From the sequence record PP301342.1: 64,000 nucleotides of DNA. The stretch is one strand, 5' to 3'. The translations under genes and the position numbers were made by a program. Shown one piece after another: positions 16,754-30,329 of this stretch. The notes under the pieces were generated by a model. The model was not told where the DNA came from. It saw only the letters and a list, made by a program, of their open reading frames with translations, and made no database searches. This DNA is from Escherichia phage UE-M3. The number at the start of each line of letters is the position of its first letter. Positions within the stretch are counted from its first letter, which is position 1.

Positions 16754-16818
16754 CTTACACTGGCTTACTGTAGAGTAAGCTTTCCATATACGATATAAGT
16801 TTGAACAGGAAACATGCT

Positions 16819-19800
16819 ATGTCAACATTTGACCGTCTGGCAGGTTTCGCAGACAGCATCACTAATGCTAAGCAAGTCGATGTCTCTACTGCAACCTCTC
16901 AGAAGCAAGCTGCACAAGGGCAAAGCCCTTTCCAATTAACCCCAGAGAATGCTTACAATCTCCAAACTGGTCGTGTAGGTAATCTTGGAATCGGTGCATT
17001 CGAACCAGGTTCACTTCAGGCAGATTTCACTCAAGCCTCCCCATTAGAAATTCTTAATAAATACGGTAATGAGCAAGGTCTACAGATTCTTAATAGCCGG
17101 GCTAATGCTGCTGATGCTGTACGTCAGGACTTATCTAAACAACGTACTAACGCAGAAGCATTTGGTGATACTCTTTCTGGTGTTGGTCTTGGTGTTGCTA
17201 ATACCCTTGGGGGCATTGCTGCTCTTGGCACAGGTCTGGTCAATGATAATGCCGGGGCATCCATTGCTTCCGGTATGGATTGGCTGAATGAAGGGGTACA
17301 CAATCTACAGTCTGATGCTCTGAATGCTACCCGTAAGGTTGTTCAGAATCAGAACCAGATTTCTGCACAAAAGAACCAGAGACTCTACGAAGAAGATATT
17401 AAAAATGGTGAGAACGATTTAGTTGCCTCCCTGTCTCGTATTGGTCGTGATGCTTTTGATTCTGTTGCTAATACACTTAATAATGGTATGGCTGCTACTG
17501 ATGGGCTGAGTGAAGGTGTTGGTTCTCTCTTTACCGGTGGTCCATTAATTCGTGGTGTATCTGCACTCGGTAAAGTAATGGTAGGTGGTGATAAAGCTGT
17601 TAAGGGTATTACCTTAGCTGCTGAGTTAGGTTCACGTCCTGCACAGGTTGCATTGTCTGCTGGTCGTGTTGCTGCACCTGCTATTGCAATTGGTGGTATG
17701 GAAGCTGGTGGTGCATACCAACAGACTGCTTCCGAAATCATGAAGATGTCCCATCAAGAATTGGCAAGTAAGTCTCCTGTTTATCAACAGCATATCGCTG
17801 ATGGTTTATCTCCTGATGAAGCACGTCGCCAAACTGCATCTGAAACGGGTATCATTGCTGCTGGCTTAACTGCTCCGGTTGCTGCTGCTACTGGTCCTCT
17901 GGTATCCAAATTTGAACTTAACCCACTTAAGGTAGGTTCGCTGGCTGGTGCTGGTTCTAACATGCTACGTGAAACAGTAGAAGAAGGTATTCAGTCTGGT
18001 ACAAGTCAGTTTGCACAGAACAAGGCAATTCAGGGTAATGTAGATGCTAAGCGTGATTTGCTTAAAGGTGTCGGTGAGCAAGCAGGTCTTGGTGCACTCT
18101 ACGGCTTCGGTAGTGCTGGTGTTGCTCAGGCTCCAGGTACAACTGTTAAAGCTGTTGGTGCTTCTGCTGGGCCTGCTTTACGTACTACTCTGGCTGGTGC
18201 TTCTCTGGTTGGTAGTGCATTAGCAAAAGCTGCCTCTCCTATTACTAACATCCTGGTTCAGCGTGGCGAAGAAGTTGCTAAGCGTAATGAACAAGCTTCC
18301 CCTGTATCTGATGCTACGGTTAATGCTGCTGCACAAGAAGCTACTGCTCAAGCAGAACAAGCACAAGCAACTGTACAAGAAGCAGTAGATGCAATGGATA
18401 TTTCTCCTGAAGATAAAGCTGCTGCTACTCAGTATGCTGCTGACTTAACTCAGGCAATGAAATTTGACCCAGTAGAACTGGAACAAGCTAACCCAGCAAT
18501 CCGTGAAGCTGTTTCTGGTTCCACTAACCGTGTTGAAGCTATTCAGAAGATGGCTGACCTGGTTAATACTGCCGAAGACCCTAACGTTCAAATGGAAGCT
18601 GCAATCCAGATGTATGACAACATCATGTCTATGGATAGCTTCATTAACCGTGATCCTGGTGCTTTAGCTAATCTGGAACAGGGTTCTCCTGCTGCTAATA
18701 TTGTTGACCAGTTCTCCGGCCTGATGGCTAACGTTCAGAATACACCAAAGGTACTTCGTGCATTCCGTGCCATCCATTCTATGATTCAGGAACAGGCTGA
18801 AGCAGGTAAACTGAAAGCTACCGAAGAAGCTAACCAAGCCCAAGCAAACAACATTGCTATGGCTGCTGATATGTCTCCAGAAGTACTGGATGCAGACTCA
18901 GTGAACATGGTTCTGAAACATGCAAGTGAAGGTAAGATTACACTGGGGAATCGTCAGCGTGCTGCCCTGCAATCTGCTGCTGCTCTATTGCAAGGAGCAC
19001 GAGAATTTGACGCTAAAGCAGAAGAACTAGGCTTACGTCCTCAAGACATTGTTAGTAAACAGATTAAAACCGACGAGTCTCGTTCTAATGAAGGTCAGTA
19101 CTCTGCGTTGCAACATGCTAAACGCATTCGTTCTGCGTACAACTCTGGTAACTTCGATTTGGCTTCCGCTTACCTCGACGACTTTATGAAGTTCGCCCAG
19201 CACATGCAGAATAAGGTCGGAGCGTTGAATGAGCATCTGATTTCTGGGAATGCGGATAAGAATAAGTCTGTCCATTATCAGGCTCTTACTCCCTCCCGTG
19301 AATGGGTACGTAGTCGTACTGGTCTTGGTGTTAATCCGTATGATACCAAGTCGGTTAAGTTTGCCCAGCAAGTAGGACTGGAGGCCAAAACCGTAGCTGA
19401 TATTGCTAACGCACTTGCTACGGCTTACCCGGAGCTTAATGTTTCTCATGTGAAGGTTACTCCATTAGATTCACGTCTGGACAAGCCTGCTGCCCAGGTA
19501 GTTAAAGAGTTCCGTCAAGGTGGTCTTGATGCCACTCAGTCTCAACAGACCAATGAACCAGTGAATCAGGTTGATGAAACTCCTGCACCAGCGCAAGAGA
19601 CTACTACTACTGTACAGCCTAAAGCTAAACCAGTGGTAGAAAATAAGACTGTTCCTGTTAAAGAGGCTAGTTCAAAAGCAGAAGAAGTCTCTACTACTAA
19701 GTCTGAAACAGTAGATGCTACCCTCACCAATGAGGATACCACTCAAAAAGTAGCTGAAACTAAAACGGAAATGGAAACAGTTTTCCCTGTCTATAACAAT

Positions 19801-22800
19801 GACAAGACACCGAACCAGTTCCTGAAATCATTTACCCTGCCGGAAGAACCTAAGTCTCGCACCATTGGTTCTGAATCCCCTTTGACTGATATTAAGCAAG
19901 CACTGTCTTCTACTGCACGCTTTGAAGCATTCACTCAAAAAGAAAATAACGCTCTCACAAGTGATGTGATTAAGCGTTATCAGGACTTAATGGGCTTTGG
20001 TGAAACTCTGAAGACTACTCTGTCTGATCGTCTGGCTAAGTTTCTTGCTAATAAGAACGTTGGTAAACGCTTTGCAGAAGGCACAGAGGCTAACCGTTGG
20101 GTAGGTGGTAAGTTACTTAATATCGTAGAGAAAGACGGAGACACCTTTAAGTTCAATGACCAGTTGTTAGAGACTGCTGTACTTGCTGGTCTGCAATGGC
20201 GACTGACTGCTACACAGAATGCTGCTGTTAAAGACATGAAAGATGTAGCTGCTATTACTGGAGTAGAAGCATCCTTGTTACCTGAAGGTATCCTGGCTGA
20301 ATTTGAGAATGCTCAGACTCTGGTTGAAGCTACTAACTCACTGGCTCAAAAGATTGAATCTTACTGGGGATTGAATCGTAATCCTAATGCACCACTGGGT
20401 TATACCAAAGGTATTCCAATGGCAATGGCTACAGAGATTCTGTCTTCTCTCATTGAGATGGGTGAAGTTAAAGAGTCTATGCTTGATGTGTCTGAGATTG
20501 ACCCAGACTCTAATAAGACCGTCGGTCTGTATACCATTGAGAAGCTGGATGATAACGATGCCATTAACAAGTTCCCTACTGCTATCGAGGAAGCTGTTCT
20601 CGTAGAACCAGAAGAGAAAATGTACTTTGGTGATGATATTCCTTCCGTGGCTCAAACTCAGTTACGTAACCCTGCTGTTAAGAATACCCCAGAGCAGAAA
20701 GCTGCTCTTAAAGCAGAACAGGCTACCGAGTTCCGTGTACACATGCCGATGGTTAACTTCTATGAAGCATTAGGTCGTGACAACATTCTGGAACTGATGG
20801 GTGCTGGTACTCTTAATCCTGAACTGCTGAACGTGAACACTGCTAAGTCACTGGAGGGTAAAAACCTGTCAGTGTCTATGGCATATGATTCCCTGTTCGG
20901 TGTAATCAACCAGTTACAGGAACAGGAGAATGGTCTGGATACGCCTATTCACTATGGTTACAACATGACCCGTGTAGGTCGTATGCAGATGTTAGGTAAG
21001 AACAACCCACAGTCCAGCAAGCTGGTTCGTGAAGCAATTCTGCCAACCTTCTCTACTATCGACTTAAGTAATGAAAACAGTCAGACGTTCTCTGATTTCC
21101 AGTTAGGTCTGTCTCAGGCATTAGGTATCAAGGTTCATAATATGTCCCGTGAAGCTATGTCTGAAAAACTGACCAAAGCTCTGGAAGGTAATTTGAAACC
21201 TGCTGTTGATATGATGGTTGAGTTTGATAAGTCCGGGCACTTACCAGCCGATGCAGTAGATATTCTTAAGACATCTCTGGGTGGTGATAAATCATTCGTA
21301 GCTCTTATGGCTCTTATGGAGTATGCCCGTTACCTGAACAGTGATGACCGTGCCAACTTTAATACCCCACTGTACGTTGAAGCCGATGGTGTAACCAACG
21401 GACCAATCAACGCAATGGTATTAATGACTGGTGGTAAGTTCACTTCAGACTGGATTAAGAATACTGCTAAAGGTGGTCTGTTCTTCGGTAAAGCTGGTAA
21501 GACTATGAATGAACATCGTTCACAGGATGACAGTGTTGACCTGTATGAAGCATCTACCAATGGTCTGCAACAAGCACTTAATGAGTTACGTACTACTTAC
21601 CGTAACAACGTTCCGGTTATGAACCAAATGAATCATCTTCAGAAGTTAATGGACCTGTTTATTAAAGACTTTAACCTGAATGAAGACGGTACTCTGGACC
21701 TGAAACGTGGTATCGCTAAAAACCCACTGACCATTACCATCTATGGTTCAGGTGCTCGTGGTATTGCTGGCAAGATGGTTAGTGCAATTACTGACACCAT
21801 CTATGAACGATTCAGTGATGTTCTGCAAGCTCGTGCTGCTGACCCTAGCATTTCCCCAGCTATGGCAATGTTTGGTAAGGAGGCTGCGTCTGAGGCTGAT
21901 GCTCAGGCTATGCTGGATACTTTCCTTACTTCTATGGAAGCACTGACTGGTAATGTTCCAGTTATGCGTAAAGGTGAATTGTCTATTCAACAGGTAGAAG
22001 GTGCTCTGACTGGTAAGTTAGACCCTCAGAAGTTTACCGTATCGGGTAATGCCCTGAAGAACTTACAAGAGAACATGCTTCACCTGTTCGTTGAACCAAT
22101 GCGTACTGGTATCCGGAATACTGTTGGGGAAGGTCTGATGCATTCTACTGAGAACTTGCAGAAGGCTACCCAGATTCAGTCTTTGGTTCTACAAGACATG
22201 TTCCAACAAGCAGTACAGGCTAAGCTGGCAGAAAAAGAAAAAGACCCAACCTGGAAGAAGGGTGATTTCTTAACACAGAAAGAACTGAATGAAATTCAGG
22301 AATCATTGTCTCCACTGGCTCCAATGATTGAGACTGGTTCACAGACTTTCTATATTGCTGGTAGTGAGAATACTGATGTTGCTAACCAGGTACTGGCTAC
22401 CAACTTAGATGACCGTATGCGTGTGCCAATGAGCATCTATGCTCCTTCTCAGGCAGGCGTTGCAGGTATTCCATTTATGACCATTGGCACTGGTGATGGC
22501 ATGATGATGCAGACCCTTTCTACTATGAAAGGTGCTCCGAAGAATACCCTGAAAATCTTTGATGGTATGAACATTGGTATCGACAACATCACTGATGCAA
22601 GTCGTAAAGCTAACGAGGCTGTATACACTTCCTGGCAGGGTAACCCTATCAAGAATGTTTATGAGTCTTTTACTAAGTTCATGAAGAACGTAGACTTCAG
22701 CAAACTATCGGATGAAACCAAACAGGCTATCGCTAAATCTGCTCTGGAATATGACCAGCGTGAAGGTGCTACCGATGACCTGTTACGTGTTGGTGCTGAA

Positions 22801-25800
22801 CAGATTGAACGTAACCTGCGTAATATTGCTCTGGGTGTAGATATTCGTCACAAAGTAATGAACCAGGTACAGACTACTGTTGACCAGATGGCTGCTGTTG
22901 GTGCTCCTTATGTGAACAACGGTAAAATCTCTCTGGAAGGTCTGACCGTAGACCAACAAGTAGCTAAGCTAAATGAACTGTTCGATGCTGAATTAAACAA
23001 ACGTCGTGATGCAGTACGTGCTGCTAAAGTAGAACCAGTGAAAGAAGTGCCAGCAATGGAACAGGTTGGTCGTGTACTGAAGTCTGGTGTACGCCTACTG
23101 TCTAATACTGCTATCTCTAAGCTGGCTAAAGAGATGTCTCCGGAACAGCAAGCAGTACTGAAAGAAGTACAGAAATCCCTTGCTGCTAAAGACTATAAGG
23201 TTGTTTACGGTACACCTTCCCAACTGGATGCTTATGCTATTGAGAAGAATATTACTCGCCCAGCACCAGAAGATATTGAAGCTGCTGAAGCTGGTAATGC
23301 GTATGGTTGGACTAACTTTGAAGATAAGACCATCTACTTAGTTACCCCTTCCTTAGAGACTCTGGTTCATGAATTGGTGCATGCTTCTACTTTTGAATCT
23401 GTACTGGCTCACTATGAGGGTACTCCTAATGAAGCGGTCCAGAACATTGAAGACCTGATGAACCAGTTCCGTGCTCTGGATGTTAAGGATGAATCCCCGG
23501 CAGTTCGGGAAGCATATGCAGATGCTCTTAATACTATTAACGGTCATTTATCTAATGGCTTTATTGAGCCAGCAATGGCTAAAGCTGCTGCACTGAATGA
23601 GTACATGGCATGGGGTTTAACCAACCGTGAACTGATTAGTAAGCAGAAGAAAACCACTGCACTTAAGACTATGGTTCAGGCTGTATATGAAGCAATTAAA
23701 CGTCTGGTATTCGGGCGTAAGAAAGCACCAGCTAATGCAGATGATATGTTCTCTGGCTTACTGTTTAACTCGTCCGTAGTTATGCGTGGGCAAGCTCCTA
23801 CTGCTGCTGTAGCCAAAGATACTACTCTGTTCCATAACAAAACGTATGGTGACAATACTCGTCTGGAAGAGCTAGGGAAAACCTTCGATAAACTGATTAC
23901 TGACTACATTGGTTCTGAACCAGTACAGCAAGTAATTCGTAAAGGTAAGTTCTCTGATGCAGTGGTTAATGCGACTAAAGTAACTCGTGATGTTCAGGCT
24001 CATGGCTTCACTATGAATATGCAGGAACAACGTCTCTTTACTAACATTGTTGCTGCTCTGGCTACTGAGGCTGCTATTAATCCTGCTGCTCTGGCTCGTG
24101 CGCAGGAATACTACACACATGTTACTAAGAACCTGACCGTTGAGTCATTCATGGCTGACCCAGATAGTACTAACCCTGCTGACCGTTACTATGCACAGCA
24201 GAAGTTCGATACCATCATGGGTGCTAACAACATTGAGTTTGATTCACAAGGTCGTTCCTCCTTACTGCCTACCTTTATTGGTCTGGCGATGGTAAGTGAA
24301 GAGGTACGTAAAGTGCTGGCTGATATTCCAGTTATGAAAGTAGACAAGAAATCTGGCAATACCGCTGATGCAATGCTGACTAACATCGGTACTGCTGCAA
24401 TGGCTAGTCTGAATGCTCGTGTAGCAGGAGATACTAAAGCTACCAACGTACAGGAAGGTATGGATGCACTGGCTCAGACAATCATGCAGACCAGTCTTAA
24501 TGCACAATCCTTCTATGATTCCGTTGCTACTCCTACGGGTAATGCTATTGATCGTGCTAACCAGTATCTGGTGGACTCTATTGATGTACTGTCTACCCGT
24601 GCTTTAGAAGGTGCTCGTGAAGTTGCAGCTAATACCAAGAACCCGTTGGTTAAAGGTGCTGCCCATGCTGCACAATTAATAGCTGCTATTGCTACAGAGA
24701 AGAATGGTGCAATCGTAGCCGAAGGTGTTATGGCTGCAATGAACCAAGGTAAAGTATGGCAACCCTTTCACGATCTGGTTAATGACTTAACTGGTCGTAC
24801 TAAGAGTAATGCTTCTGTATATGATTTGATTAAGGCAGTGCGTGCCCAGGTACAGGCTGACCGTCAACAGTTCCGTGAACATCTGCCCACCACTATCGCA
24901 TCTAAGTTCAGCCGTAAGCTGACTAATGATGAGTGGAAAGCAATGCATACCGGTATGGGTAAAACCGACTTAGCTGTTCTGCGTGACACTATGTCTCTGG
25001 GTGAAATTCGTGACTTGCTGACTGACCAAAAGATTGTTGACCGTGAAGTGAATAAGCTGGAAGCAGATTTGCAGAAACAAGCAGGACGTAACTGGCCTTT
25101 GATTAGCCGTAAATCTAAGCAACTGGCTCAGTACATGATTAATGGCACAGTTGGTAATAACTTGCTGCGTAATGCTACTGCAATCTCTCGTATGCTGGGT
25201 GAACGACAGGCTGCACGTTCTACTGTAGACGTAGCTCAACTGGATAAACTGATTACTCTGTATGCACTGGAAGCAATGAGTAAGACTGACCGTGAGATGT
25301 TATCTTCACTGGCTCAATCAGAAGCTGATGGGATTGATTTTGCTACTTCTTATCTGGTTGGACAGCGTAAAGATGAAATGGCTAAAGCCAAATCTGACAT
25401 GCGTGCAACCCTGAACCAGTACAAAGGGTATATTCCTGGTGAGACTAAACAGGGTGTTAACTTGATTGTTGCTGAAGATAGTCAGTTTGCTGATTTGATT
25501 GAGAAGTCCTATGTACGTCTGGGTACTTATCAGGGTAGCTCTGCTAATCGTGGTCCAGCACGTAGCTACTACTTTGCACCGGTACAGGCACAGGCTCCAT
25601 TCTCGCAAGGTATCTTACAGAACGTTCGCAATACTGCTGGTGGTGTAGACCTTGGTACAGGCTTTACGATGGGTACAATGGTAGCTGGTCGTATCACTGA
25701 CAAGCCTTCTGTAGACCGTATCACTAAAGCACTGGCTCGCGGTGAACGTGGTAATGAACCACTGCTGCCTGTATATGATGATAAAGGCAATGTGGTTGCT

Positions 25801-27171
25801 TATGAGCAATCTATTGACCCTAACATGCTGAAGCACATTGAGGGTGAGAACCATCTCGCTCGTGCAATCGGTGTATGGCGTGGTCGTCAGGTAGAGGAAG
25901 CTAAGGCTCAGCGTTTCAACGATATGCTGATTGAGAACCTGCATAGCATGTATAAAAACGACATTAAAATGTCTGCCTCTAACAAGTCACAGTACGTTAA
26001 CCTTCTTGGTTCTAAACTGGACCCAGTAACTGCTGATGCCCTTAAGCTGATGAACAGTGAAACTCGTCAGAAAGCAGAAAGTCTGTTTGGTCCTGGTGAG
26101 TTGTGGGTACGTCGTGACATGCTGAATGATGCACTGGGCTATCGTGCAGCTTCCGTAGGTGATGCCTGGTCTGGCAATTCTCGTTGGTCACCAGAAACAC
26201 TGGATACCTTCAAGAAAGCTATGTTGGGTGTATTCGGCAACCGTGCTTATAAGTATGTAATGGGTGGTGAGAACCTGGTTCAAAACTTAGTTAAAGAAGC
26301 TAAGACTCTGATTGTAGTTAAATCAGTAGTTGTTCCTGCTGTTAACTTCCTGGCTAACCTTTACCAGATGGTTGGTCGTGGTGTACCTGTTAAGAACATT
26401 GCTAAGAGCATTCCACAGAAGACTGCTGAGATTAACCAGTACCTGAAATCTCGTCTGCGTCAGGTAGATGCAGAAGCAGAATTACGTGCAGCTACTAACC
26501 CGAACCAGATTCGTAAGCTTAAGGCTGAAATTCAGTCCATCACTGATAGTCATAAGCGTATGAGTATCTGGCCTCTGTTAGAAGCTGGTGAGTTTTCTTC
26601 AATTGCAGATGCTGGTATTGGACGAGATGACATCCTGATTACTGAAGGTAAACTTCACGAATACATGGATAAACTGGTTGATAAGTTACCTAAGTCTGTA
26701 CGTAATGCTGGACGTTATGCCCTTATCACCAAGGATACTGCTTTATTCCAGGGTATCCAGAAGACGGTTGAGTACTCTGACTTTATTGCTAAAGCAATCA
26801 TCTATGATGATTTGACTCAGCGTAAAGGTAAGACTCGTGAAGAAGCACTTGGACGTGTAACGGAAGAGTTCATTAACTATGACCGTCTGCCTGGTCGCTT
26901 CCGTGGGTATATGGAAAGTGTTGGTCTTATGTGGTTCTATAACTTTAAGATTCGTTCTGCAAAAATTGCAGTATCCATGATTCGTAACAACCCGGTACAC
27001 GCAGCTATGGCTATGTTGGCTCCAACTCCTACCATGTTTGGTAATGTTGGTTTACCTATTCAGGACAACATCTTCAGTATTGCTGCACAAGGCAATCTCG
27101 GTTACTCCTGGGGCTTCGGTCAGGGACTTCGTGCCCATAACCTTAACCCTTGGCTCAATCTAGCTAACTAA
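16819..27171 (+). CDS. Giant virion RNA polymerase (N4 gp50-like vRNAP)
   Basis: Uninterrupted ~10.4 kb ORF (3450 aa from ATG 16819; track start 16801 is TTG); size and position after capsid/virion genes match N4 vRNAP (~3500 aa as recalled); hairpin promoters for such an enzyme found elsewhere in window. Confidence 0.85.
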   Translation: MSTFDRLAGFADSITNAKQVDVSTATSQKQAAQGQSPFQLTPENAYNLQTGRVGNLGIGAFEPGSLQADFTQASPLEILNKYGNEQGLQILNSRANAADAVRQDLSKQRTNAEAFGDTLSGVGLGVANTLGGIAALGTGLVNDNAGASIASGMDWLNEGVHNLQSDALNATRKVVQNQNQISAQKNQRLYEEDIKNGENDLVASLSRIGRDAFDSVANTLNNGMAATDGLSEGVGSLFTGGPLIRGVSALGKVMVGGDKAVKGITLAAELGSRPAQVALSAGRVAAPAIAIGGMEAGGAYQQTASEIMKMSHQELASKSPVYQQHIADGLSPDEARRQTASETGIIAAGLTAPVAAATGPLVSKFELNPLKVGSLAGAGSNMLRETVEEGIQSGTSQFAQNKAIQGNVDAKRDLLKGVGEQAGLGALYGFGSAGVAQAPGTTVKAVGASAGPALRTTLAGASLVGSALAKAASPITNILVQRGEEVAKRNEQASPVSDATVNAAAQEATAQAEQAQATVQEAVDAMDISPEDKAAATQYAADLTQAMKFDPVELEQANPAIREAVSGSTNRVEAIQKMADLVNTAEDPNVQMEAAIQMYDNIMSMDSFINRDPGALANLEQGSPAANIVDQFSGLMANVQNTPKVLRAFRAIHSMIQEQAEAGKLKATEEANQAQANNIAMAADMSPEVLDADSVNMVLKHASEGKITLGNRQRAALQSAAALLQGAREFDAKAEELGLRPQDIVSKQIKTDESRSNEGQYSALQHAKRIRSAYNSGNFDLASAYLDDFMKFAQHMQNKVGALNEHLISGNADKNKSVHYQALTPSREWVRSRTGLGVNPYDTKSVKFAQQVGLEAKTVADIANALATAYPELNVSHVKVTPLDSRLDKPAAQVVKEFRQGGLDATQSQQTNEPVNQVDETPAPAQETTTTVQPKAKPVVENKTVPVKEASSKAEEVSTTKSETVDATLTNEDTTQKVAETKTEMETVFPVYNNDKTPNQFLKSFTLPEEPKSRTIGSESPLTDIKQALSSTARFEAFTQKENNALTSDVIKRYQDLMGFGETLKTTLSDRLAKFLANKNVGKRFAEGTEANRWVGGKLLNIVEKDGDTFKFNDQLLETAVLAGLQWRLTATQNAAVKDMKDVAAITGVEASLLPEGILAEFENAQTLVEATNSLAQKIESYWGLNRNPNAPLGYTKGIPMAMATEILSSLIEMGEVKESMLDVSEIDPDSNKTVGLYTIEKLDDNDAINKFPTAIEEAVLVEPEEKMYFGDDIPSVAQTQLRNPAVKNTPEQKAALKAEQATEFRVHMPMVNFYEALGRDNILELMGAGTLNPELLNVNTAKSLEGKNLSVSMAYDSLFGVINQLQEQENGLDTPIHYGYNMTRVGRMQMLGKNNPQSSKLVREAILPTFSTIDLSNENSQTFSDFQLGLSQALGIKVHNMSREAMSEKLTKALEGNLKPAVDMMVEFDKSGHLPADAVDILKTSLGGDKSFVALMALMEYARYLNSDDRANFNTPLYVEADGVTNGPINAMVLMTGGKFTSDWIKNTAKGGLFFGKAGKTMNEHRSQDDSVDLYEASTNGLQQALNELRTTYRNNVPVMNQMNHLQKLMDLFIKDFNLNEDGTLDLKRGIAKNPLTITIYGSGARGIAGKMVSAITDTIYERFSDVLQARAADPSISPAMAMFGKEAASEADAQAMLDTFLTSMEALTGNVPVMRKGELSIQQVEGALTGKLDPQKFTVSGNALKNLQENMLHLFVEPMRTGIRNTVGEGLMHSTENLQKATQIQSLVLQDMFQQAVQAKLAEKEKDPTWKKGDFLTQKELNEIQESLSPLAPMIETGSQTFYIAGSENTDVANQVLATNLDDRMRVPMSIYAPSQAGVAGIPFMTIGTGDGMMMQTLSTMKGAPKNTLKIFDGMNIGIDNITDASRKANEAVYTSWQGNPIKNVYESFTKFMKNVDFSKLSDETKQAIAKSALEYDQREGATDDLLRVGAEQIERNLRNIALGVDIRHKVMNQVQTTVDQMAAVGAPYVNNGKISLEGLTVDQQVAKLNELFDAELNKRRDAVRAAKVEPVKEVPAMEQVGRVLKSGVRLLSNTAISKLAKEMSPEQQAVLKEVQKSLAAKDYKVVYGTPSQLDAYAIEKNITRPAPEDIEAAEAGNAYGWTNFEDKTIYLVTPSLETLVHELVHASTFESVLAHYEGTPNEAVQNIEDLMNQFRALDVKDESPAVREAYADALNTINGHLSNGFIEPAMAKAAALNEYMAWGLTNRELISKQKKTTALKTMVQAVYEAIKRLVFGRKKAPANADDMFSGLLFNSSVVMRGQAPTAAVAKDTTLFHNKTYGDNTRLEELGKTFDKLITDYIGSEPVQQVIRKGKFSDAVVNATKVTRDVQAHGFTMNMQEQRLFTNIVAALATEAAINPAALARAQEYYTHVTKNLTVESFMADPDSTNPADRYYAQQKFDTIMGANNIEFDSQGRSSLLPTFIGLAMVSEEVRKVLADIPVMKVDKKSGNTADAMLTNIGTAAMASLNARVAGDTKATNVQEGMDALAQTIMQTSLNAQSFYDSVATPTGNAIDRANQYLVDSIDVLSTRALEGAREVAANTKNPLVKGAAHAAQLIAAIATEKNGAIVAEGVMAAMNQGKVWQPFHDLVNDLTGRTKSNASVYDLIKAVRAQVQADRQQFREHLPTTIASKFSRKLTNDEWKAMHTGMGKTDLAVLRDTMSLGEIRDLLTDQKIVDREVNKLEADLQKQAGRNWPLISRKSKQLAQYMINGTVGNNLLRNATAISRMLGERQAARSTVDVAQLDKLITLYALEAMSKTDREMLSSLAQSEADGIDFATSYLVGQRKDEMAKAKSDMRATLNQYKGYIPGETKQGVNLIVAEDSQFADLIEKSYVRLGTYQGSSANRGPARSYYFAPVQAQAPFSQGILQNVRNTAGGVDLGTGFTMGTMVAGRITDKPSVDRITKALARGERGNEPLLPVYDDKGNVVAYEQSIDPNMLKHIEGENHLARAIGVWRGRQVEEAKAQRFNDMLIENLHSMYKNDIKMSASNKSQYVNLLGSKLDPVTADALKLMNSETRQKAESLFGPGELWVRRDMLNDALGYRAASVGDAWSGNSRWSPETLDTFKKAMLGVFGNRAYKYVMGGENLVQNLVKEAKTLIVVKSVVVPAVNFLANLYQMVGRGVPVKNIAKSIPQKTAEINQYLKSRLRQVDAEAELRAATNPNQIRKLKAEIQSITDSHKRMSIWPLLEAGEFSSIADAGIGRDDILITEGKLHEYMDKLVDKLPKSVRNAGRYALITKDTALFQGIQKTVEYSDFIAKAIIYDDLTQRKGKTREEALGRVTEEFINYDRLPGRFRGYMESVGLMWFYNFKIRSAKIAVSMIRNNPVHAAMAMLAPTPTMFGNVGLPIQDNIFSIAAQGNLGYSWGFGQGLRAHNLNPWLNLAN

Positions 27172-28380: not shown

Positions 28381-28420
28381 AAAAAGTCCCCCAGAGTGAC
28401 GGCTCCAGGGGACTTAGTAC
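28381..28420 (-). terminator. Hairpin with T-run on minus strand, downstream of tRNA cluster
   Basis: agtcccc...ggggact stem with long loop, A-run on + side (T-run for minus transcripts). Confidence 0.4.
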
Positions 28421-28658: not shown

Positions 28659-28732
28659 TGTCCACTACTGGATTTGAACCAGTGACTTTCCGATTATTAG
28701 TCGGTTGCTTTCCCCGTCTAAGCTAAGCGGAC
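28659..28732 (-). tRNA. tRNA, canonical cloverleaf; anticodon loop CUAAUAA (anticodon AAU, isotype tentative Ile)
   Basis: Minus strand folds with acceptor GTCCGCT/AGTGGAC, D-arm GCTT/AAGC, anticodon stem ACCGA/TCGGA, T-arm ACTGG-TTCAAAT-CCAGT; CCA not encoded. Confidence 0.6.
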
Positions 28733-28738
28733 ATAATA

Positions 28739-28814
28739 TGGTTACCCGGACAGGATTCGAACCTGCGTCCTAGTTGGTTTACTAGTGGGGCTTTACCACT
28801 AAGCCTACCGGGTA
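28739..28814 (-). tRNA. tRNA-like gene with encoded CCA but non-canonical anticodon loop (6- or 8-nt)
   Basis: Acceptor TACCCGG/CCGGGTA, D-arm GGCT-TAGTGGTAA-AGCC, T-arm GCAGG-TTCGAAT-CCTGT, 3-prime ACCA; anticodon region CTAGT-AAACCA-ACTAG cannot form a 7-nt loop. Confidence 0.55.
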
Positions 28815-29115
28815 TTAATAGGTGAGTCATGCCAGACTCTAACTGGCTCCTTCTTCGCAATCCTTACATACCCCTACATAATTATTGCGTTAAGCTTTTT
28901 TGTTTAAGTTTAAGTGAAGGCGTTCTTGCTGACTCATAATTGGGTTGGGCGTTTGACGAATGACTAGTTCGTTACTACCCGTTTGCCATAAGTACCTGGC
29001 GACTTTGGTTTGAGGTGGGAGTCCGAGTCCTGTACAGCCTTACCGTTCACACATTGGCAGCGTATCTAGAGTTGCACTTCCGGCAACTGGATTTAACTGT
29101 TACACCTCAAATAGG

Positions 29116-29215
29116 CAGTGGGGGATGGAATCGAACCATCAGTATTAAGTCTTATTCGTGCACCAAGCACGCTAGTAGATTACTCTACCGGAGGGAATCG
29201 AACCCTATCTACTTC
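29116..29215 (-). other. Two adjacent tRNA-like T-arm motifs with no canonical cloverleaf resolved by eye
   Basis: Minus strand GATGG-TTCGATT-CCATC and TAGGG-TTCGATT-CCCTC plus D-loop-like GGTAGAG; acceptor pairing not found at canonical distance. Confidence 0.3.
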
Positions 29216-29322
29216 ACCAGACCCACCATAATTCTTCCAATTTAGAGTAGCATTGTCACGGTGGGTGCTTTAAATGCCGGGAAACATTTAAATATACAAT
29301 GCTACTTTGAATTGGTTATCAG

Positions 29323-29436
29323 TGAAGGATTCGAACCTCCGGTTGGAGTCTATAGCTTACCGCAGCAGCCCTCCAATCTAGCGGTGTCACACTTAGTCCA
29401 AACTTGAACATGTCAAGCCATCTCGTGCAACTGATA
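29323..29436 (-). other. tRNA-like element with encoded CCA, unusually long (~114 nt)
   Basis: T-arm GGAGG-TTCGAAT-CCTTC, 3-prime ACTGATA-A-CCA; only complementary 5-prime strand TATCAGT lies 110 nt away; internal TTGGAG/CTCCAA stem. Confidence 0.35.
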
Positions 29437-29438
29437 AT

Positions 29439-29504
29439 TGGTTCCGGCGTCTGGACTCGAACCAGAACACTCATGCCGTGCACGACACTAGTACCTACAC
29501 CGGA
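29439..29504 (-). other. tRNA-like element with encoded CCA, unusually short or mis-delimited
   Basis: T-arm TCTGG-TTCGAGT-CCAGA, acceptor TCCGGTG/CGCCGGA, CCA encoded; body too short for a canonical tRNA. Confidence 0.3.
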
Positions 29505-29571
29505 ATTAATTGCCAGGGATTCCACCTGGCTCCATCTGTTTTTATAGTCACTCAGATATCGTCTGGACTGT

Positions 29572-29649
29572 AGGCATGGGTGGGAATCGAACCCACAAAC
29601 CATTCAGCACTGTAGCCTCACGCTCTACCTATTTGAGCTATCACATACC
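29572..29649 (-). other. tRNA-like element (T-arm and D-arm-like motifs, anticodon arm not canonical)
   Basis: GTGGG-TTCGATT-CCCAC T-arm, AGCTCAAATAGGTAGAGC D-arm-like, acceptor GGTATGT/CCATGCC with one mismatch. Confidence 0.35.
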
Positions 29650-30329
29650 ATTGATTAACTCCCCGTTTCTAATACATGGACGGGGACACTCCACGGTCGT
29701 TTGATAATCAGGACGACTCACTCCTGACTGACGCTTGGCTTATTAGGCTGCCATCAGAACAACATCATCGTTTGCATTTATGTTATTGGTTCGTTTCTAA
29801 AAAACCGCATAATCGCTTACGAAAACTATCAAAGAGTACACTAGCTCTGGGCCACGCTTGTGGACATCGGCCTACCTTCCACAGCTAATCAACTAATGCA
29901 CTCACTGATAGCCCATAATAGGGGGGAGGGGACGAATCCTCCCTTTATACCCTATATTGCATGTAAGATCTAACAGTTCGATGTTGTAGGTAGCTAGGCT
30001 ATCCGACATTTAACCCAGCCCATATAGGGGCTTATGTGATTAGAATGCTCAACATTGAGCGGTTAGTTTGATAAGGGATCTGAAGCCTTATCCTAAAGAT
30101 ACTAACCTTTGGGATATAGCCTAAGATTCAGAAATGGCCCCTATAGGGAGAGGCCATTGATTAACCCGAATGTTGCTTTACATTTGCTGTGATAACCAAT
30201 TCTTAAAATAGTCTGTCTGACGGATGGGGGTCCACCCCTAGCGTCAGTGCCATACGGCAAAGATTAAGTTAAGAAAGGTTATGATAGGAGTTCCTATCTC
30301 AAAGGATTCTAACAGAACCCTTCACGATA

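What the first reader, a model, noticed from the sequence alone, without database searches (positions are those of the whole stretch)
28659..29649. tRNA cluster with one canonical tRNA and several non-canonical tRNA-like elements
Only 28659..28732 folds as a standard cloverleaf, and its anticodon reads AAU (A34 is unusual). 28739..28814 has perfect acceptor, D- and T-arms and encoded CCA, but its anticodon region can only form a 6- or 8-nt loop. Further T-arm motifs have acceptor partners at non-standard distances (114 nt and ~66 nt) or no canonical anticodon arm. These could be tRNAs with insertions, altered-loop suppressors, decayed pseudo-tRNAs or tRNA-like processing signals.
Basis: seen in the sequence. 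Interest (0 to 1): 0.6.

Follow-up and report, generated by a model that had tools for sequence, protein, structure and literature searches.

The report
Phage tRNA-like RNA array with tmRNA-like module
A G7C/N4-like coliphage carries a 1.5-kb non-coding RNA operon holding one normal tRNA, five conserved tRNA look-alikes that mostly cannot decode, and a previously unannotated piece of a ribosome-rescue RNA (tmRNA) that is also present in P1, lambda-like and many other enterobacterial phages.

Summary
The window is Escherichia phage UE-S5a (Gamaleyavirus, N4-like), and everything described lies on the minus strand.

- **T-loop motifs:** seven GGTTCRADTCC motifs fall within 28670-29593, against 0.11 expected.
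- **Predictors:** ARAGORN and Rfam accept only two tRNAs. One is tRNA-Ile(AAU). The other is a cloverleaf whose anticodon loop is 6 or 8 nt.
- **Other T arms:** these belong to e1 (a weak tRNA-Cys(ACA)-like element), e2 (a 66-nt mini tRNA-like with ACCA), e3 (124 nt with ACCA) and e45 (114 nt with two T arms).
- **Not decayed pseudogenes:** relatives show compensatory changes in the acceptor, T and internal stems of e2, e3, e45 and the odd-loop tRNA.

Directly upstream (29826-29660) lies a tmRNA-derived module that I did not expect. It has a GCA resume codon, the 10-codon tag ANDDVVLMAA with two stops, a helix-5-like stem and two covarying H-type pseudoknots. It has no tRNA-like domain of its own.

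I collected 126 copies plus three relatives from P1, lambdoid prophages, Ackermannviridae, siphophages and N4-likes. All keep exactly 10 codons plus a stop, across 15 tag variants. The module is unannotated, falls below Rfam's cut-off, and I found no paper on it.

How either kind of RNA works remains inferred.

The parts
29660..29826 (-). tmRNA-derived module without its own tRNA-like domain, read 29826 to 29660 on the minus strand. In N4-like phages a conserved flank extends up to about 29911. It contains a 5' region resembling PK1 and the D loop (GUUUUCGU..GCGAUUAUGCGG..UUUAGAAACGAACC), the tag ORF, a helix-5-like stem and two H-type pseudoknots.
   Evidence: - Rfam tmRNA_permuted scores 32.7 bits against a gathering score of 47.
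- ARAGORN at relaxed settings reports the tag.
- Homologues occur in 469 phage records and in at least 120 IMG/VR contigs.
- Covariation is shown.
- A local alignment matches E. coli ssrA nt 54-125.
29740..29775 (-). Tag reading frame, read 29775 to 29740: GCA AAC GAU GAU GUU GUU CUG AUG GCA GCC UAA UAA, encoding ANDDVVLMAA followed by two stops. There is no start codon, and an in-frame UAG lies 8 codons upstream.
   Evidence: - Sequence read directly.
- 126 instances, 27 nucleotide versions and 14 peptides were found, plus ANEEAYLMVA in three relatives.
- All are 10 codons plus a stop; one copy has UAG instead of UAA.
- Entropy by codon position is 0.64 / 0.32 / 0.88.
29728..29757 (-). Helix-5-like stem (CUGA at 29757-29754 with UCAG at 29731-29728) that places the stop codons in its loop.
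   Evidence: 98% of cells are paired over 35 sequences, with AU/GC swaps. Shifted controls give 13-31%.
29696..29727 (-). Pseudoknot PK2. S1 is UCAGGA (29727-29722) with UCCUGA (29713-29708). S2 is GUCG (29717-29714) with CGAC (29699-29696).
   Evidence: - S1 variants: ACGGGG/CCCCGU, GCAAGG/CCUUGU, GUGAGG/CCUCAU and others.
- S2 variants: GUCG/CGAC, CCGA/UCGG, CCAG/CUGG, CCAA/UUGG.
- The Rfam beta_tmRNA alignment covers the tag and this pseudoknot.
29660..29695 (-). Pseudoknot PK3. Stem a is CGUGGA (29695-29690) with UCCAUG (29680-29675). Stem b is UCCCCG (29686-29681) with CGGGGA (29665-29660). The third loop is A-rich.
   Evidence: - Stem a variants: CGCAG/CUGUG, CGCAC/GUGUG, CGCAUU/GAUGUG, CGGAGU/ACUCUG.
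- Stem b variants: GCCC/GGGC, GGCGGGAG/CUCCCGCC and others.
29572..29649 (-). e1, a weak tRNA-Cys(ACA)-like element.
- 6 of 7 acceptor pairs form, including U3.G70.
- The D and T arms are canonical.
- Only 3 of 5 anticodon-stem pairs form.
- The discriminator is U73 and no CCA is encoded.
   Evidence: - ARAGORN finds it only at -ps80.
- There is no Rfam tRNA hit at E<=10; only the T arm matches tmRNA, at 15.5 bits.
- GenBank labels it tRNA-Cys.
- Relatives are near-identical, so they are uninformative.
29505..29571 (-). Conserved spacer module of about 60 nt that precedes e2. It contains the hairpin GCCAGG-UGGAAUC-CCUGGC.
   Evidence: It also precedes e2 in KKP 3715 and Bas96.
29439..29504 (-). 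e2, a 66-nt mini tRNA-like RNA.
- 7-bp acceptor stem.
- One long hairpin with a UGCA tetraloop in place of the D and anticodon arms.
- A T arm.
- Encoded ACCA.
   Evidence: - Fold.
- 8 distinct homologues show 2 compensatory pairs in the inner hairpin and 2 in the T stem, with none broken.
- It is annotated tRNA-OTHER or tRNA-Undet in other phages.
29313..29436 (-). e3, a 124-nt tRNA-like RNA.
- 7-bp acceptor stem.
- A T arm.
- Encoded ACCA.
- An invariant interior of about 60 nt.
- It starts only 2 nt after the CCA of e2.
   Evidence: 3 compensatory acceptor pairs and 1 in hairpin 1 across 9 homologues. ARAGORN calls it only as a relaxed-mode 'intron' tRNA.
29114..29227 (-). e45, a 114-nt RNA. 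It is closed by GGUGGG/CCCACU and contains two T-arm hairpins and two other hairpins. Its tail is GCC.
   Evidence: - 4 of 6 closing pairs are compensatory.
- There are 2 compensatory pairs in each T stem and 1 in hairpin 3.
- A homologue lies between tRNA-Met and tRNA-Arg in the T4-like phage VR5.
28739..28814 (-). Cloverleaf tRNA-like RNA with a non-7-nt anticodon loop (AAACCA or UAAACCAA). ACCA is encoded.
   Evidence: - Detected.
- Family members have other loops: 8 nt in KP8 and L118, and 9 nt in SonariX, SABI and 05F01.
- There are 3 compensatory pairs in the acceptor stem and 3 in the anticodon stem.
28659..28732 (-). Canonical tRNA-Ile with anticodon AAU.
   Evidence: - 63 bits against the Rfam tRNA model.
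- The anticodon loop CUAAUAA is conserved in the 7 Gamaleyavirus-type sequences compared, with a compensatory C-G to U-A change in the anticodon stem.
- AUU is 62% of the phage's Ile codons.
28384..28415 (-). Intrinsic terminator ending the RNA operon: a 13-bp stem followed by a U run.
   Evidence: It also accounts for the weak His_leader match.

Best explanation
**What it is.** The stretch 28659-29649 is the downstream two thirds of a minus-strand non-coding RNA operon of about 1.5 kb. The operon runs from roughly 29911 to the terminator at 28415-28384, in a G7C-type N4-like phage.

**What is shown.**
- It encodes one ordinary decoder, tRNA-Ile(AAU). This tRNA pairs by Watson-Crick rules with the phage's favourite Ile codon, AUU.
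- It encodes five tRNA look-alikes that keep the acceptor-stem/T-arm 'top half' of a tRNA. Three have an encoded CCA. In each, the anticodon domain is replaced (e2, e3, e45), weakened (e1) or given a loop of 6 or 8 nt (28739-28814).
- e2, e3, e45 and the odd-loop tRNA are under selection for their folds.
- Directly upstream lies a tmRNA-derived tag-template RNA with the tag ANDDVVLMAA.

**What is inferred.**
- The array is transcribed as one precursor. Host tRNA-maturation enzymes (RNase P, 3' trimming, the CCA-adding enzyme) cut it at the tRNA-like top halves, as in the T4 tRNA cluster.
- This would release stable small RNAs that enter tRNA-handling pathways but mostly cannot decode. It would also give the tmRNA-like RNA defined ends. 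In every lineage examined, its last pseudoknot is followed within a few nucleotides by an acceptor-type stem.
- The tag template is probably read by ribosomes in a trans-translation-like reaction. That reaction would have to borrow an acceptor domain and SmpB from elsewhere. Which RNA supplies the acceptor is unknown.
For: **Predictors and motif enrichment.**
- Only two elements pass the tRNA predictors.
- Seven T-loop motifs occur against 0.11 expected.

**Array layout.**
- Spacing is tight and typical of a tRNA gene array. e3 starts 2 nt after the CCA of e2, and 6 nt separate the last two genes.
- A single strong terminator closes the array.
- The overlapping ORFs have no PHROG match.

**Selection on the folds.** Compensatory double changes:

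| Element | Compensatory pairs |
|---|---|
| e2 | 4 |
| e3 | 4 |
| e45 | 9 |
| odd-loop tRNA | 6 |

**Modularity.**
- The modules appear in a different order in KP8, L118 and PhAPEC5.
- Individual modules occur in T4-like phages and in Klebsiella and Salmonella phages, many of them not N4-like. Each therefore appears to work on its own.

**Precedent.** T4 species 1 and 2 RNAs (rnaC, rnaD) lie in the T4 tRNA cluster, and rnaC carries a T arm.

**tmRNA-like module.**
- Sub-threshold tmRNA_permuted, beta_tmRNA and tmRNA matches occur in five unrelated phages.
- The tag is always 10 codons plus a stop, in 126 copies plus three relatives. There are 15 peptide variants, several with synonymous nucleotide versions. 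One copy has UAA changed to UAG. Variability by codon position follows 3 > 1 > 2.
- The helix-5-like stem and both pseudoknots covary.
- The sequence aligns to E. coli ssrA from PK1 through the tag.
- An acceptor-type stem follows directly in all lineages examined.
Against: **No expression or processing data.** RNase P cleavage, CCA addition, stability and charging are all inferred from shape.

**The tag module lacks what defines a working tmRNA.**
- No tRNA-like domain with G3:U70 and CCA is joined to it in any family.
- P1 has only a plain hairpin after it.
- The element that follows differs between lineages, so no fixed partner exists.
- It scores below Rfam's gathering cut-off.

**Other weak points.**
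- An RNA that only binds SmpB or ribosomal protein S1 could retain much of this structure.
- The covariation sets for e45 (4 sequences) and the odd-loop tRNA (5 sequences) are small and phylogenetically uneven.
- e1 has no informative relatives, so it may be a failing tRNA-Cys.
- The invariant interior of e3 implies a specific function that mere 'punctuation' does not explain.
Confidence: 0.55

Rival explanations
1. The extra T-arm elements are decaying tRNA pseudogenes left over from a once larger tRNA cluster. They have no function.
For: - e1 looks like a tRNA-Cys with two mismatches in its anticodon stem and no CCA.
- In KKP 3715 the odd-loop tRNA has lost its CCA, which reads UCA.
- tRNA clusters in phages turn over quickly.
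Against: - e2, e3, e45 and the odd-loop family keep all stems through compensatory changes over 75-90% sequence identity and across phage families.
- About 60 nt of e3 are invariant.
- The elements are spread as intact modules.
Confidence: 0.1
2. The elements are real decoding tRNAs in disguise. They could be intron-containing or split genes that mature to cloverleaves. The 6- to 9-nt-loop tRNA could be a frameshift or stop suppressor.
For: - Relaxed intron-mode ARAGORN reads e3 as tRNA-Thr(GGU) with a 45-nt intron.
- ARAGORN at -ps90 reads the SonariX, SABI and 05F01 relatives as 'tRNA-Stop(UUA)'.
- Expanded anticodon loops are the classic feature of frameshift suppressors (own knowledge).
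Against: - 45 nt is too short for a group I intron, and no intron model hits.
- Bacteria lack a bulge-helix-bulge splicing endonuclease (own knowledge).
- e2 has only 29 nt between its acceptor and T stems.
- Loop length and sequence differ completely between family members (AAACCA, CAGGCAUG, AACUUAAGA).
- At least the two 8-nt readings lack U at the position of U33.
Confidence: 0.12
3. The tmRNA-like module is a decoy rather than a template. It would soak up SmpB, ribosomal protein S1 or RNase R and so damp host trans-translation. The tRNA-like RNAs would similarly be decoys for enzymes or defence nucleases that act on tRNA acceptor ends.
For: - No tRNA-like domain is attached to the module.
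- The TLD-only tmRNA of mycobacteriophage DS6A is described as a likely inhibitor that titrates SmpB (PMC4131195, PMC11915505).
- e2, e3 and e45 keep exactly the part of a tRNA that acceptor-end enzymes see.
Against: - A decoy would not need a reading frame of fixed length, a conserved stop codon (with one UAA to UAG change) or a 3 > 1 > 2 pattern of codon-position variability.
- SmpB binds the tRNA-like domain, which is exactly what is missing (own knowledge).
Confidence: 0.2
4. The conservation reflects DNA-level or protein-coding function: a promoter or origin, attachment sites, or the 68-aa ORF annotated in GenBank across e2 and e3.
For: GenBank annotates a hypothetical protein across window 29319-29525. 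T-arm sequences are common in phage attachment sites (own knowledge).
Against: - The ORFs have no family match.
- Substitutions come as base-pair swaps in stems, not at codon third positions.
- The phage is lytic.
- The same modules sit inside tRNA arrays in unrelated phages.
Confidence: 0.03

Closest known systems
Phage T4 species 1 and species 2 stable RNAs (rnaC, rnaD) in the T4 tRNA gene cluster
   Same: - They are non-tRNA small stable RNAs of 139 and 119 nt, encoded inside a tightly packed phage tRNA array.
- rnaC ends with a canonical T arm and an acceptor-like closing stem.
- They mature with the tRNAs, and their function is still unknown (own knowledge).
   Different: - There is no sequence similarity beyond the T loop.
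- The elements here form several distinct families (e2, e3, e45), including one with two T arms.
- They are shared among N4-like, T4-like and other phages.
tmRNA (ssrA; Rfam RF00023, RF01850 beta_tmRNA, RF04321 tmRNA_permuted)
   Same: - GCA resume codon preceded by an A/U-rich stretch.
- A 10-codon AND... tag ending in AA or VA, compared with E. coli ANDENYALAA.
- Stop codons in the loop of a helix-5-like stem.
- H-type pseudoknots after the tag. The PK2 linker UUACCAAA matches the betaproteobacterial consensus.
- The sequence aligns to E. coli ssrA nt 54-125.
   Different: - No acceptor stem with G3:U70, no T arm and no CCA belong to it.
- Only two downstream pseudoknots are present, and PK1 is reduced or unclear.
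- It scores 22-33 bits against a gathering score of 47.
- It is encoded in phage tRNA arrays and in operon leaders.
Two-piece (permuted) tmRNAs of alpha- and betaproteobacteria and cyanobacteria, and the TLD-only tmRNA of mycobacteriophage DS6A
   Same: - They show that tmRNA function can be divided between separate RNAs cut out by tRNA-processing enzymes.
- They show that phages can carry partial tmRNAs (PMC11915505, PMC4131195).
- Genuine permuted tmRNAs with the tag ANDEQFALAA were seen in viral contigs L167, L184 and L203.
   Different: - In two-piece tmRNAs the coding piece still begins with the 5' acceptor strand, and an acceptor piece lies just upstream. Neither is present here.
- DS6A keeps the opposite half, the TLD without a tag.
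Bacterial Y RNA-like YrlA and other tRNA-like modules
   Same: A tRNA-like domain with a T arm and acceptor-like stem is fused to a non-tRNA domain.
   Different: - There is no Rfam YrlA match in the window.
- No Ro/Rsr partner is known in E. coli (own knowledge).
- The elements here have free CCA ends.

Membership tests
tRNA (Rfam RF00005) | Covariance-model score at or above 29 bits, or an ARAGORN call at default settings | tested here: not met
   This is met only by 28659-28732 (63 bits) and 28742-28814 (40.7 bits). e1, e2, e3 and e45 give no tRNA match even at E<=10.
tRNA (Rfam RF00005) | Anticodon arm with a 5-bp stem and a 7-nt loop containing U33 | tested here: not met
   - 28739-28814 has a 6- or 8-nt loop.
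- e1 forms only 3 of 5 stem pairs.
- e2 has a tetraloop hairpin.
- e3 and e45 have no such arm.
- Only tRNA-Ile(AAU) meets the feature.
tRNA (Rfam RF00005) | 7-bp acceptor stem, T arm with a UUCRANY loop, and a 3' NCCA | tested here: met
   - All seven elements have the T arm.
- Acceptor stems are 6-7 bp.
- ACCA is encoded in e2, e3 and 28739-28814.
- e45 has GCC, and e1 has none.
tmRNA | tRNA-like domain: acceptor stem with G3:U70, T arm and CCA, physically part of the RNA | tested here: not met
   - No such domain adjoins the module in the window, P1, lambdoid, Ackermannviridae-like, SE131 or siphophage copies.
- e1 has U3.G70.
- The P1 hairpin has a G.U at its third pair but no T arm and no CCA.
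tmRNA | Tag reading frame that starts at a resume codon without a start codon, ends in a stop, and encodes a degron-like C-terminus | tested here: met
   GCA...UAA UAA encodes ANDDVVLMAA. All 126 copies plus three relatives have 10 codons plus a stop, and variability follows a coding pattern.
tmRNA | Helix 5 around the stop codon, and pseudoknots flanking the tag | tested here: met
   The helix-5-like stem, PK2 and PK3 are supported by covariation. A PK1 equivalent could not be settled.
tmRNA | Rfam gathering score (47 for RF00023 and RF04321; 84 for RF01850) | tested here: not met
   32.7 bits in the window, and 22.8-29.5 bits in P1, 3M, SE131 and STGO-35-1.
tmRNA | Alanylation, SmpB binding and tagging of stalled nascent chains | not testable with these tools
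   This needs aminoacylation assays, SmpB pull-down and mass spectrometry of tagged proteins.
T4 species 1 and 2 RNAs | Sequence homology to T4 rnaC or rnaD | tested here: not met
   BLAST finds only T-loop-sized matches of 11-25 nt.
T4 species 1 and 2 RNAs | A non-decoding stable RNA inside a phage tRNA array, matured by RNase P with CCA addition | not testable with these tools
   Location and shape fit. Processing is untested.

The most novel reading that the evidence does not exclude
Enterobacterial phages of many families carry a split ribosome-rescue system. These include N4-like, P1, lambdoid, Ackermannviridae and several siphophages.

- A free-standing tag-template RNA, derived from tmRNA but lacking its tRNA-like domain, would be released from tRNA-like arrays by tRNA-processing enzymes.
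- It would cooperate in trans with a separate acceptor RNA. That RNA could be one of the neighbouring top-half tRNA mimics or a host RNA. Host SmpB would also be needed.
- Stalled proteins would then be tagged with phage-specified peptides such as ANDDVVLMAA, ANDDLMMVAA, ANDEQFLAVA and ANEEAYLMVA.

This would be a topology of trans-translation not seen before. It would also give a function to the non-decoding tRNA-like RNAs.
Probability: 0.2. Interest if true: 0.92.

Novelty: new variant of a known kind. Interest (0 to 1): 0.78.

Why it matters
**Annotation.** Phage tRNA clusters are usually annotated gene by gene. Anything that fails tRNAscan is ignored, or is overwritten with small 'hypothetical protein' ORFs, as happened here.

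**The tRNA-like RNAs.**
- This locus shows that several of those leftovers are conserved, modular, structured RNAs.
- They are shared across phage families that are otherwise unrelated.

**The tmRNA-derived module.**
- It is present in P1-type plasmids in about 10% of complete E. coli genomes, in lambdoid prophages and in many therapeutic-candidate phages.
- It is absent from their annotations and from Rfam.

**If the tag is used.**
- Phages would be reprogramming, or supplying, ribosome rescue during infection.
- This is directly testable by searching infected-cell proteomes for the predicted tags.
- It bears on old observations that some phages need host tmRNA.

**If the tag is not used.**
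- The module is a natural inhibitor or mimic of tmRNA.

**Practical consequence.** The tRNA-like modules and the tag module give concrete new covariance models for phage genome annotation.

Tried and rejected
**Relaxed ARAGORN modes (intron, mitochondrial, -ps80).** The calls were inconsistent and of low quality. Examples are tRNA-Ser(GGA) versus intron tRNA-Thr for e3, and tRNA-Phe at 29040-29117. I did not use them as evidence.

**A standard one-piece tmRNA made of the module plus the T arm of e1.**
- ARAGORN at -ps80 proposes this.
- A distal 5' strand, GCGUGG (29853-29848), can pair with CCAUGC of e1 and gives a G.U at the third pair.
- A 6-mer of this kind is expected by chance about 12% of the time within 120 nt (my estimate).
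- It is not conserved in ECBP1 or Uz-1, and the D-loop spacing is wrong. Rejected.

**A permuted tmRNA with an acceptor piece upstream.**
- The upstream sequence is a DicF-like terminator in P1, a sigma-70-like promoter ending about 10 nt before the module in STGO-35-1, a long hairpin in the Ackermannviridae-like contigs and a tRNA in KP8.
- None of these is an acceptor piece.

**The 'tRNA-Ala(CGC)' in ECBP1 and Uz-1 upstream of the module as an Ala-accepting domain.** It has U3-A70, not G3:U70.

**The long stem after the module (CAACAGGUAAGAGCAUUG...CAGUGCUCUUUCCGUUGUG) as a conserved acceptor stem.**
- It also occurs in phage lambda itself, without the module.
- Its G.U position is not conserved, and its insert is highly variable.

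**A PK1 fold for the 5' region.** Several candidate helices were examined by eye and with RNAalifold. None had consistent covariation.

**Pairing of the module with host tmRNA (duplexfold).** The output was not interpretable and was not used.

**The IMG/VR scan with the e3 T-arm pattern.** It returned unrelated tRNAs and was of no use for e3.

**Literature searches.** Seven searches found no description of these elements. The supplements of the tmRNA database paper that are held as text do not list phage entries.
Full report
**Source and context**

- The window is 100% identical over the tested 1.8 kb to Escherichia phage UE-S5a (PP175015; Schitoviridae, Gamaleyavirus), a G7C-type N4-like phage.
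- The finding lies on the minus strand in a gene-poor stretch of about 2 kb. On one side is the 3456-aa virion RNA polymerase gene (16801-27171, +); on the other are the replication genes.
- A strong intrinsic terminator on the minus strand at 28415-28384 closes the region.
- The small ORFs that overlap it have no PHROG match. One of them is annotated as a hypothetical protein in GenBank.

**Check of the observation**

- The first is tRNA-Ile(AAU) at 28659-28732, at 63 bits.
- The second is a cloverleaf at 28739/28742-28814, at 40.7 bits. Its anticodon arm the covariance model simply skips, and ARAGORN gives it a two-base 'anticodon'.
- The T-loop motif GGTTCRADTCC occurs seven times in the window, all on the minus strand within 28670-29593. 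Shuffles give 0.11 expected.
- Reading the minus strand and folding each piece gives the following elements:

| Element | Coordinates (minus strand) | Features |
|---|---|---|
| e1 | 29649-29572 | Normal D and T arms, 6 of 7 acceptor pairs, 3 of 5 anticodon-stem pairs, anticodon ACA, discriminator U, no CCA |
| e2 | 29504-29439 | 66 nt; acceptor UCCGGUG/CGCCGGA, one long hairpin with a UGCA tetraloop, T arm, ACCA |
| e3 | 29436-29313 | 124 nt; acceptor UAUCAGU/ACUGAUA, T arm, ACCA, large interior |
| e45 | 29227-29114 | Closing stem GGUGGG/CCCACU around two T-arm hairpins and two other hairpins; tail GCC |

- Relaxed and intron modes of ARAGORN give only weak and mutually inconsistent calls.
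- Rfam finds no tRNA match for e1 to e45 even at E<=10.
- The observation therefore stands as written.

**Are the odd elements junk?**

No. Homologous segments came from other Gamaleyaviruses (ECBP1, Uz-1, PhAPEC5, KKP 3715, Bas96), Klebsiella phage KP8, IMG/VR contigs and a T4-like phage. They differ by 5-25% and keep the stems through paired changes.

- **e2:** two compensatory pairs in the inner hairpin and two in the T stem.
- **e3:** three in the acceptor stem (UAUCAGU/ACUGAUA, UACCAGU/ACUGGUA, UACUGGU/ACCAGUA) and one in a hairpin. About 60 nt of its interior never change.
- **e45:** four of six closing pairs, two pairs in each T stem and one in a further hairpin.
  - A homologue of e45 with a different closing stem lies between tRNA-Met and tRNA-Arg in the T4-like phage VR5.
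- **The odd-loop tRNA:** it belongs to a family with members in KP8 and L118 (loop CAGGCAUG, 8 nt) and in SonariX, SABI and 05F01 (loop AACUUAAGA, 9 nt).
  - Acceptor and anticodon stems covary, with three compensatory pairs each, and CCA is encoded.
  - The loop has no conserved length or sequence, and at least the two 8-nt readings lack U at the U33 position.
- **e1:** its only relatives are near-identical, so its status is open.

The modules appear in a different order in KP8, L118 and PhAPEC5. Pieces turn up in T4-like phages and in Klebsiella and Salmonella phages, many of them not N4-like. Each module is therefore a self-contained unit.

**The canonical tRNA**

- Anticodon AAU is conserved in all seven Gamaleyavirus-type homologues, with a compensatory change in the anticodon stem. 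A close relative in another phage carries CAU.
- AUU makes up 62% of Ile codons, and UGU 72% of Cys codons, in the 26 long ORFs of the window.
- A34 therefore gives Watson-Crick reading of the phage's preferred U-ending codons. This would also fit e1 (ACA) if that element is functional.

**What lies just upstream**

An E-value-mode Rfam scan gave a sub-threshold match to tmRNA_permuted at 29743-29845, at 32.7 bits against a gathering score of 47. Relaxed ARAGORN reported the tag ANDDVVLMAA.

The sequence is GCA AAC GAU GAU GUU GUU CUG AUG GCA GCC UAA UAA (29775-29740). It has no start codon, and an in-frame UAG lies eight codons upstream. The E. coli tag is ANDENYALAA.

BLAST of this stretch hits 469 phage records of very different kinds, almost all unannotated there. 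They include N4-likes of Escherichia and Klebsiella, Ackermannviridae, Moazamivirus SE131, phage P1 and siphophages of about 46-49 kb.

- In P1 it lies in the ban operon leader, between the 'dicF-like region' and tRNA-Asn.
- In lambdoid prophages it lies in the late leader, after PR'/tR'.
- In KP8 it lies inside the tRNA array, 5 nt after a tRNA-like gene.
- The P1-type copy is present in 561 of 5426 complete E. coli genomes. PGAP leaves it unannotated in nearly all listed records.

**Evidence that this is a tmRNA-type tag template and not a chance resemblance**

- *Reading frame:* 126 instances give 27 nucleotide versions and 14 peptides. ANEEAYLMVA in Bas96, PhAPEC5 and KKP 3715 adds a fifteenth.
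  - Every one has exactly ten codons followed by a stop. One copy has UAG in place of UAA, and several peptides have synonymous versions.
  - Variability by codon position is 0.64 / 0.32 / 0.88 bits.
- *Helix-5-like stem:* the stop codons sit in the loop of a stem that is 98% paired and shows AU/GC swaps.
- *Pseudoknots:* two H-type pseudoknots follow, each supported by several compensatory variants of both stems.
  - PK2 resembles the betaproteobacterial tmRNA consensus down to its UUACCAAA linker.
- *Alignment:* the region from GCGGUU to the tag aligns with E. coli ssrA nt 54-125, that is, from the 3' half of PK1 through the resume region and the tag.

**What is missing**

The tRNA-like domain is missing.

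- No acceptor stem with G3:U70, T arm and CCA is attached in any family. P1 has only a plain hairpin after the module.
- In STGO-35-1 a good sigma-70-type promoter (TTGACA, 17 nt, TAGATT, read by eye) ends about 10 nt before the conserved GUUUUCG. That leaves no room for an upstream acceptor piece.
- What is constant is that the last pseudoknot is followed within a few nucleotides by an acceptor-type stem:
  - e1 in the window.
  - e3 in KP8 and L118.
  - Another tRNA-like (UAUGACC...GGUCAUA) in KKP 3715 and Bas96.
  - A tRNA-Ser-like element in SE131.
  - The long stem CAACAGG(U/A)AAGAGCAUUG...CAGUGCUCUUUCCGUUGUG in P1, lambdoid prophages, STGO-35-1 and PhAPEC5.
- That long stem also exists in phage lambda itself, without the module. 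It is therefore a separate unit with a variable insert.

**How it most likely works**

*Shown:*
- The anatomy.
- The selection on the folds and on the reading frame.
- The modularity of the elements.

*Inferred:*
- The array is one transcript that host RNase P, 3' trimming and the CCA-adding enzyme cut at the tRNA-like top halves. The nearest known precedent is the T4 tRNA cluster with its species 1 and 2 RNAs.
- This would give stable small RNAs that enter tRNA-handling pathways without decoding. It would also give the tag-template RNA defined ends.
- The frame conservation argues that ribosomes read the tag. That requires an aminoacylated acceptor and SmpB from elsewhere, and I could not identify the partner.
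- The main alternative is a decoy for the tmRNA machinery. It explains the missing domain but not the conserved frame.

**Comparison with what is known**

- The tRNA-like RNAs work like T4 species 1 and 2 RNAs and other tRNA-like modules, but share no sequence with them.
- The module shares the coding half of tmRNA but fails the defining test of a tmRNA, the tRNA-like domain. It also falls below Rfam's cut-offs.
- It is the mirror image of the TLD-only tmRNA of mycobacteriophage DS6A (PMC4131195, PMC11915505).
- No Rfam family at gathering score covers any of these elements in nine further loci.
- Seven literature searches found no description. The held library is incomplete, so earlier notice cannot be excluded.

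**Verdict**

Noticed in passing
L003 (P1, AF234173) 1501-1664; L009, L010, L011, L115 and L125 (lambdoid prophage contigs): The same tag module lies in the P1 ban-operon leader, between the 'dicF-like region' and tRNA-Asn. It also lies in lambdoid late leaders after PR'/tR'. The tags differ (ANDDLMMVAA, ANDEQFLAVA, ANDDLMLMAA and others). The P1-type copy is in 561 of 5426 complete E. coli genomes and is unannotated in nearly all listed records.
   Followed up: yes
L256 (lambda NC_001416) record about 44785-44868; also P1, STGO-35-1 and PhAPEC5 (L246): A long stem of about 20 bp, CACAACAGGUAAGAGCAUUG...CAGUGCUCUUUCCGUUGUG, carries a highly variable insert that is sometimes a T-arm hairpin. It occurs in lambda right after tR' and recurs as a flanking unit of the tag module in unrelated phages. 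It looks like an insertion hot spot or a processing stem.
   Followed up: partly
window 29505-29571 (-): A module of about 60 nt (AGUCCAGACGAUAUCUGAGUGACUAUAAAAACAGAUGGAGCCAGGUGGAAUCCCUGGC) always precedes e2 in the loci where I looked. It is found at 85-98% identity in Klebsiella and Salmonella phages, many of them not N4-like, including 9NA. Function unknown.
   Followed up: partly
window 29846-29893 (-): The hairpin GCUGUGGA-AGGUAGGCCGAUG-UCCACAAGC, upstream of the tag module, is 87-92% identical to an unannotated stretch in many ViI-like (Ackermannviridae) Salmonella, Escherichia, Klebsiella and Serratia phages.
   Followed up: no
window 28821-29113 (-): About 300 nt between e45 and the odd-loop tRNA are 90-96% conserved in Bas96, KKP 3715 and PhAPEC5. 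They fold into a long-range stem (UUUGAGGUG...CACCUCAAA) around further hairpins. No family match. Possibly more structured RNAs.
   Followed up: no
window 29319-29525 (-): GenBank's hypothetical protein UES5a031 overlaps e2 and e3, has no PHROG match, and is almost certainly a spurious ORF call over RNA genes. In Bas96 the same region is tiled with nine tiny 'hypothetical proteins'.
   Followed up: partly
L080 11041-11112 (ECBP1) and L248 (Uz-1): Where UE-S5a has about 72 nt upstream of the tag module, ECBP1 and Uz-1 have about 172 nt. That stretch contains yet another non-canonical tRNA-like element, which ARAGORN calls 'tRNA-Ala(CGC)'. It has an 8-bp acceptor stem with a mismatch and no G3:U70.
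   Followed up: partly
L146, L149, L154, L156, L168, L169, L177, L179, L185, L207, L210, L226; L167, L184, L203: Unrelated IMG/VR contigs, many of them large, were fetched by a T-arm pattern. They carry bona fide tmRNA genes by default ARAGORN, with tags such as AKTNSSRNFQLAA. Three contigs carry permuted tmRNAs with the tag ANDEQFALAA, close to the lambdoid phage tag ANDEQFLAVA.
   Followed up: no
window, 26 ORFs of at least 200 aa: Codon usage strongly favours U-ending codons: AUU 62% of Ile, UGU 72% of Cys, GCU 56% of Ala. This matches the A34 anticodons AAU and ACA encoded in the cluster.
   Followed up: partly
L023: One IMG/VR copy of the P1-type module has lost its 5' region and PK2 but keeps the tag. 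This shows that degenerate copies exist alongside intact ones.
   Followed up: no
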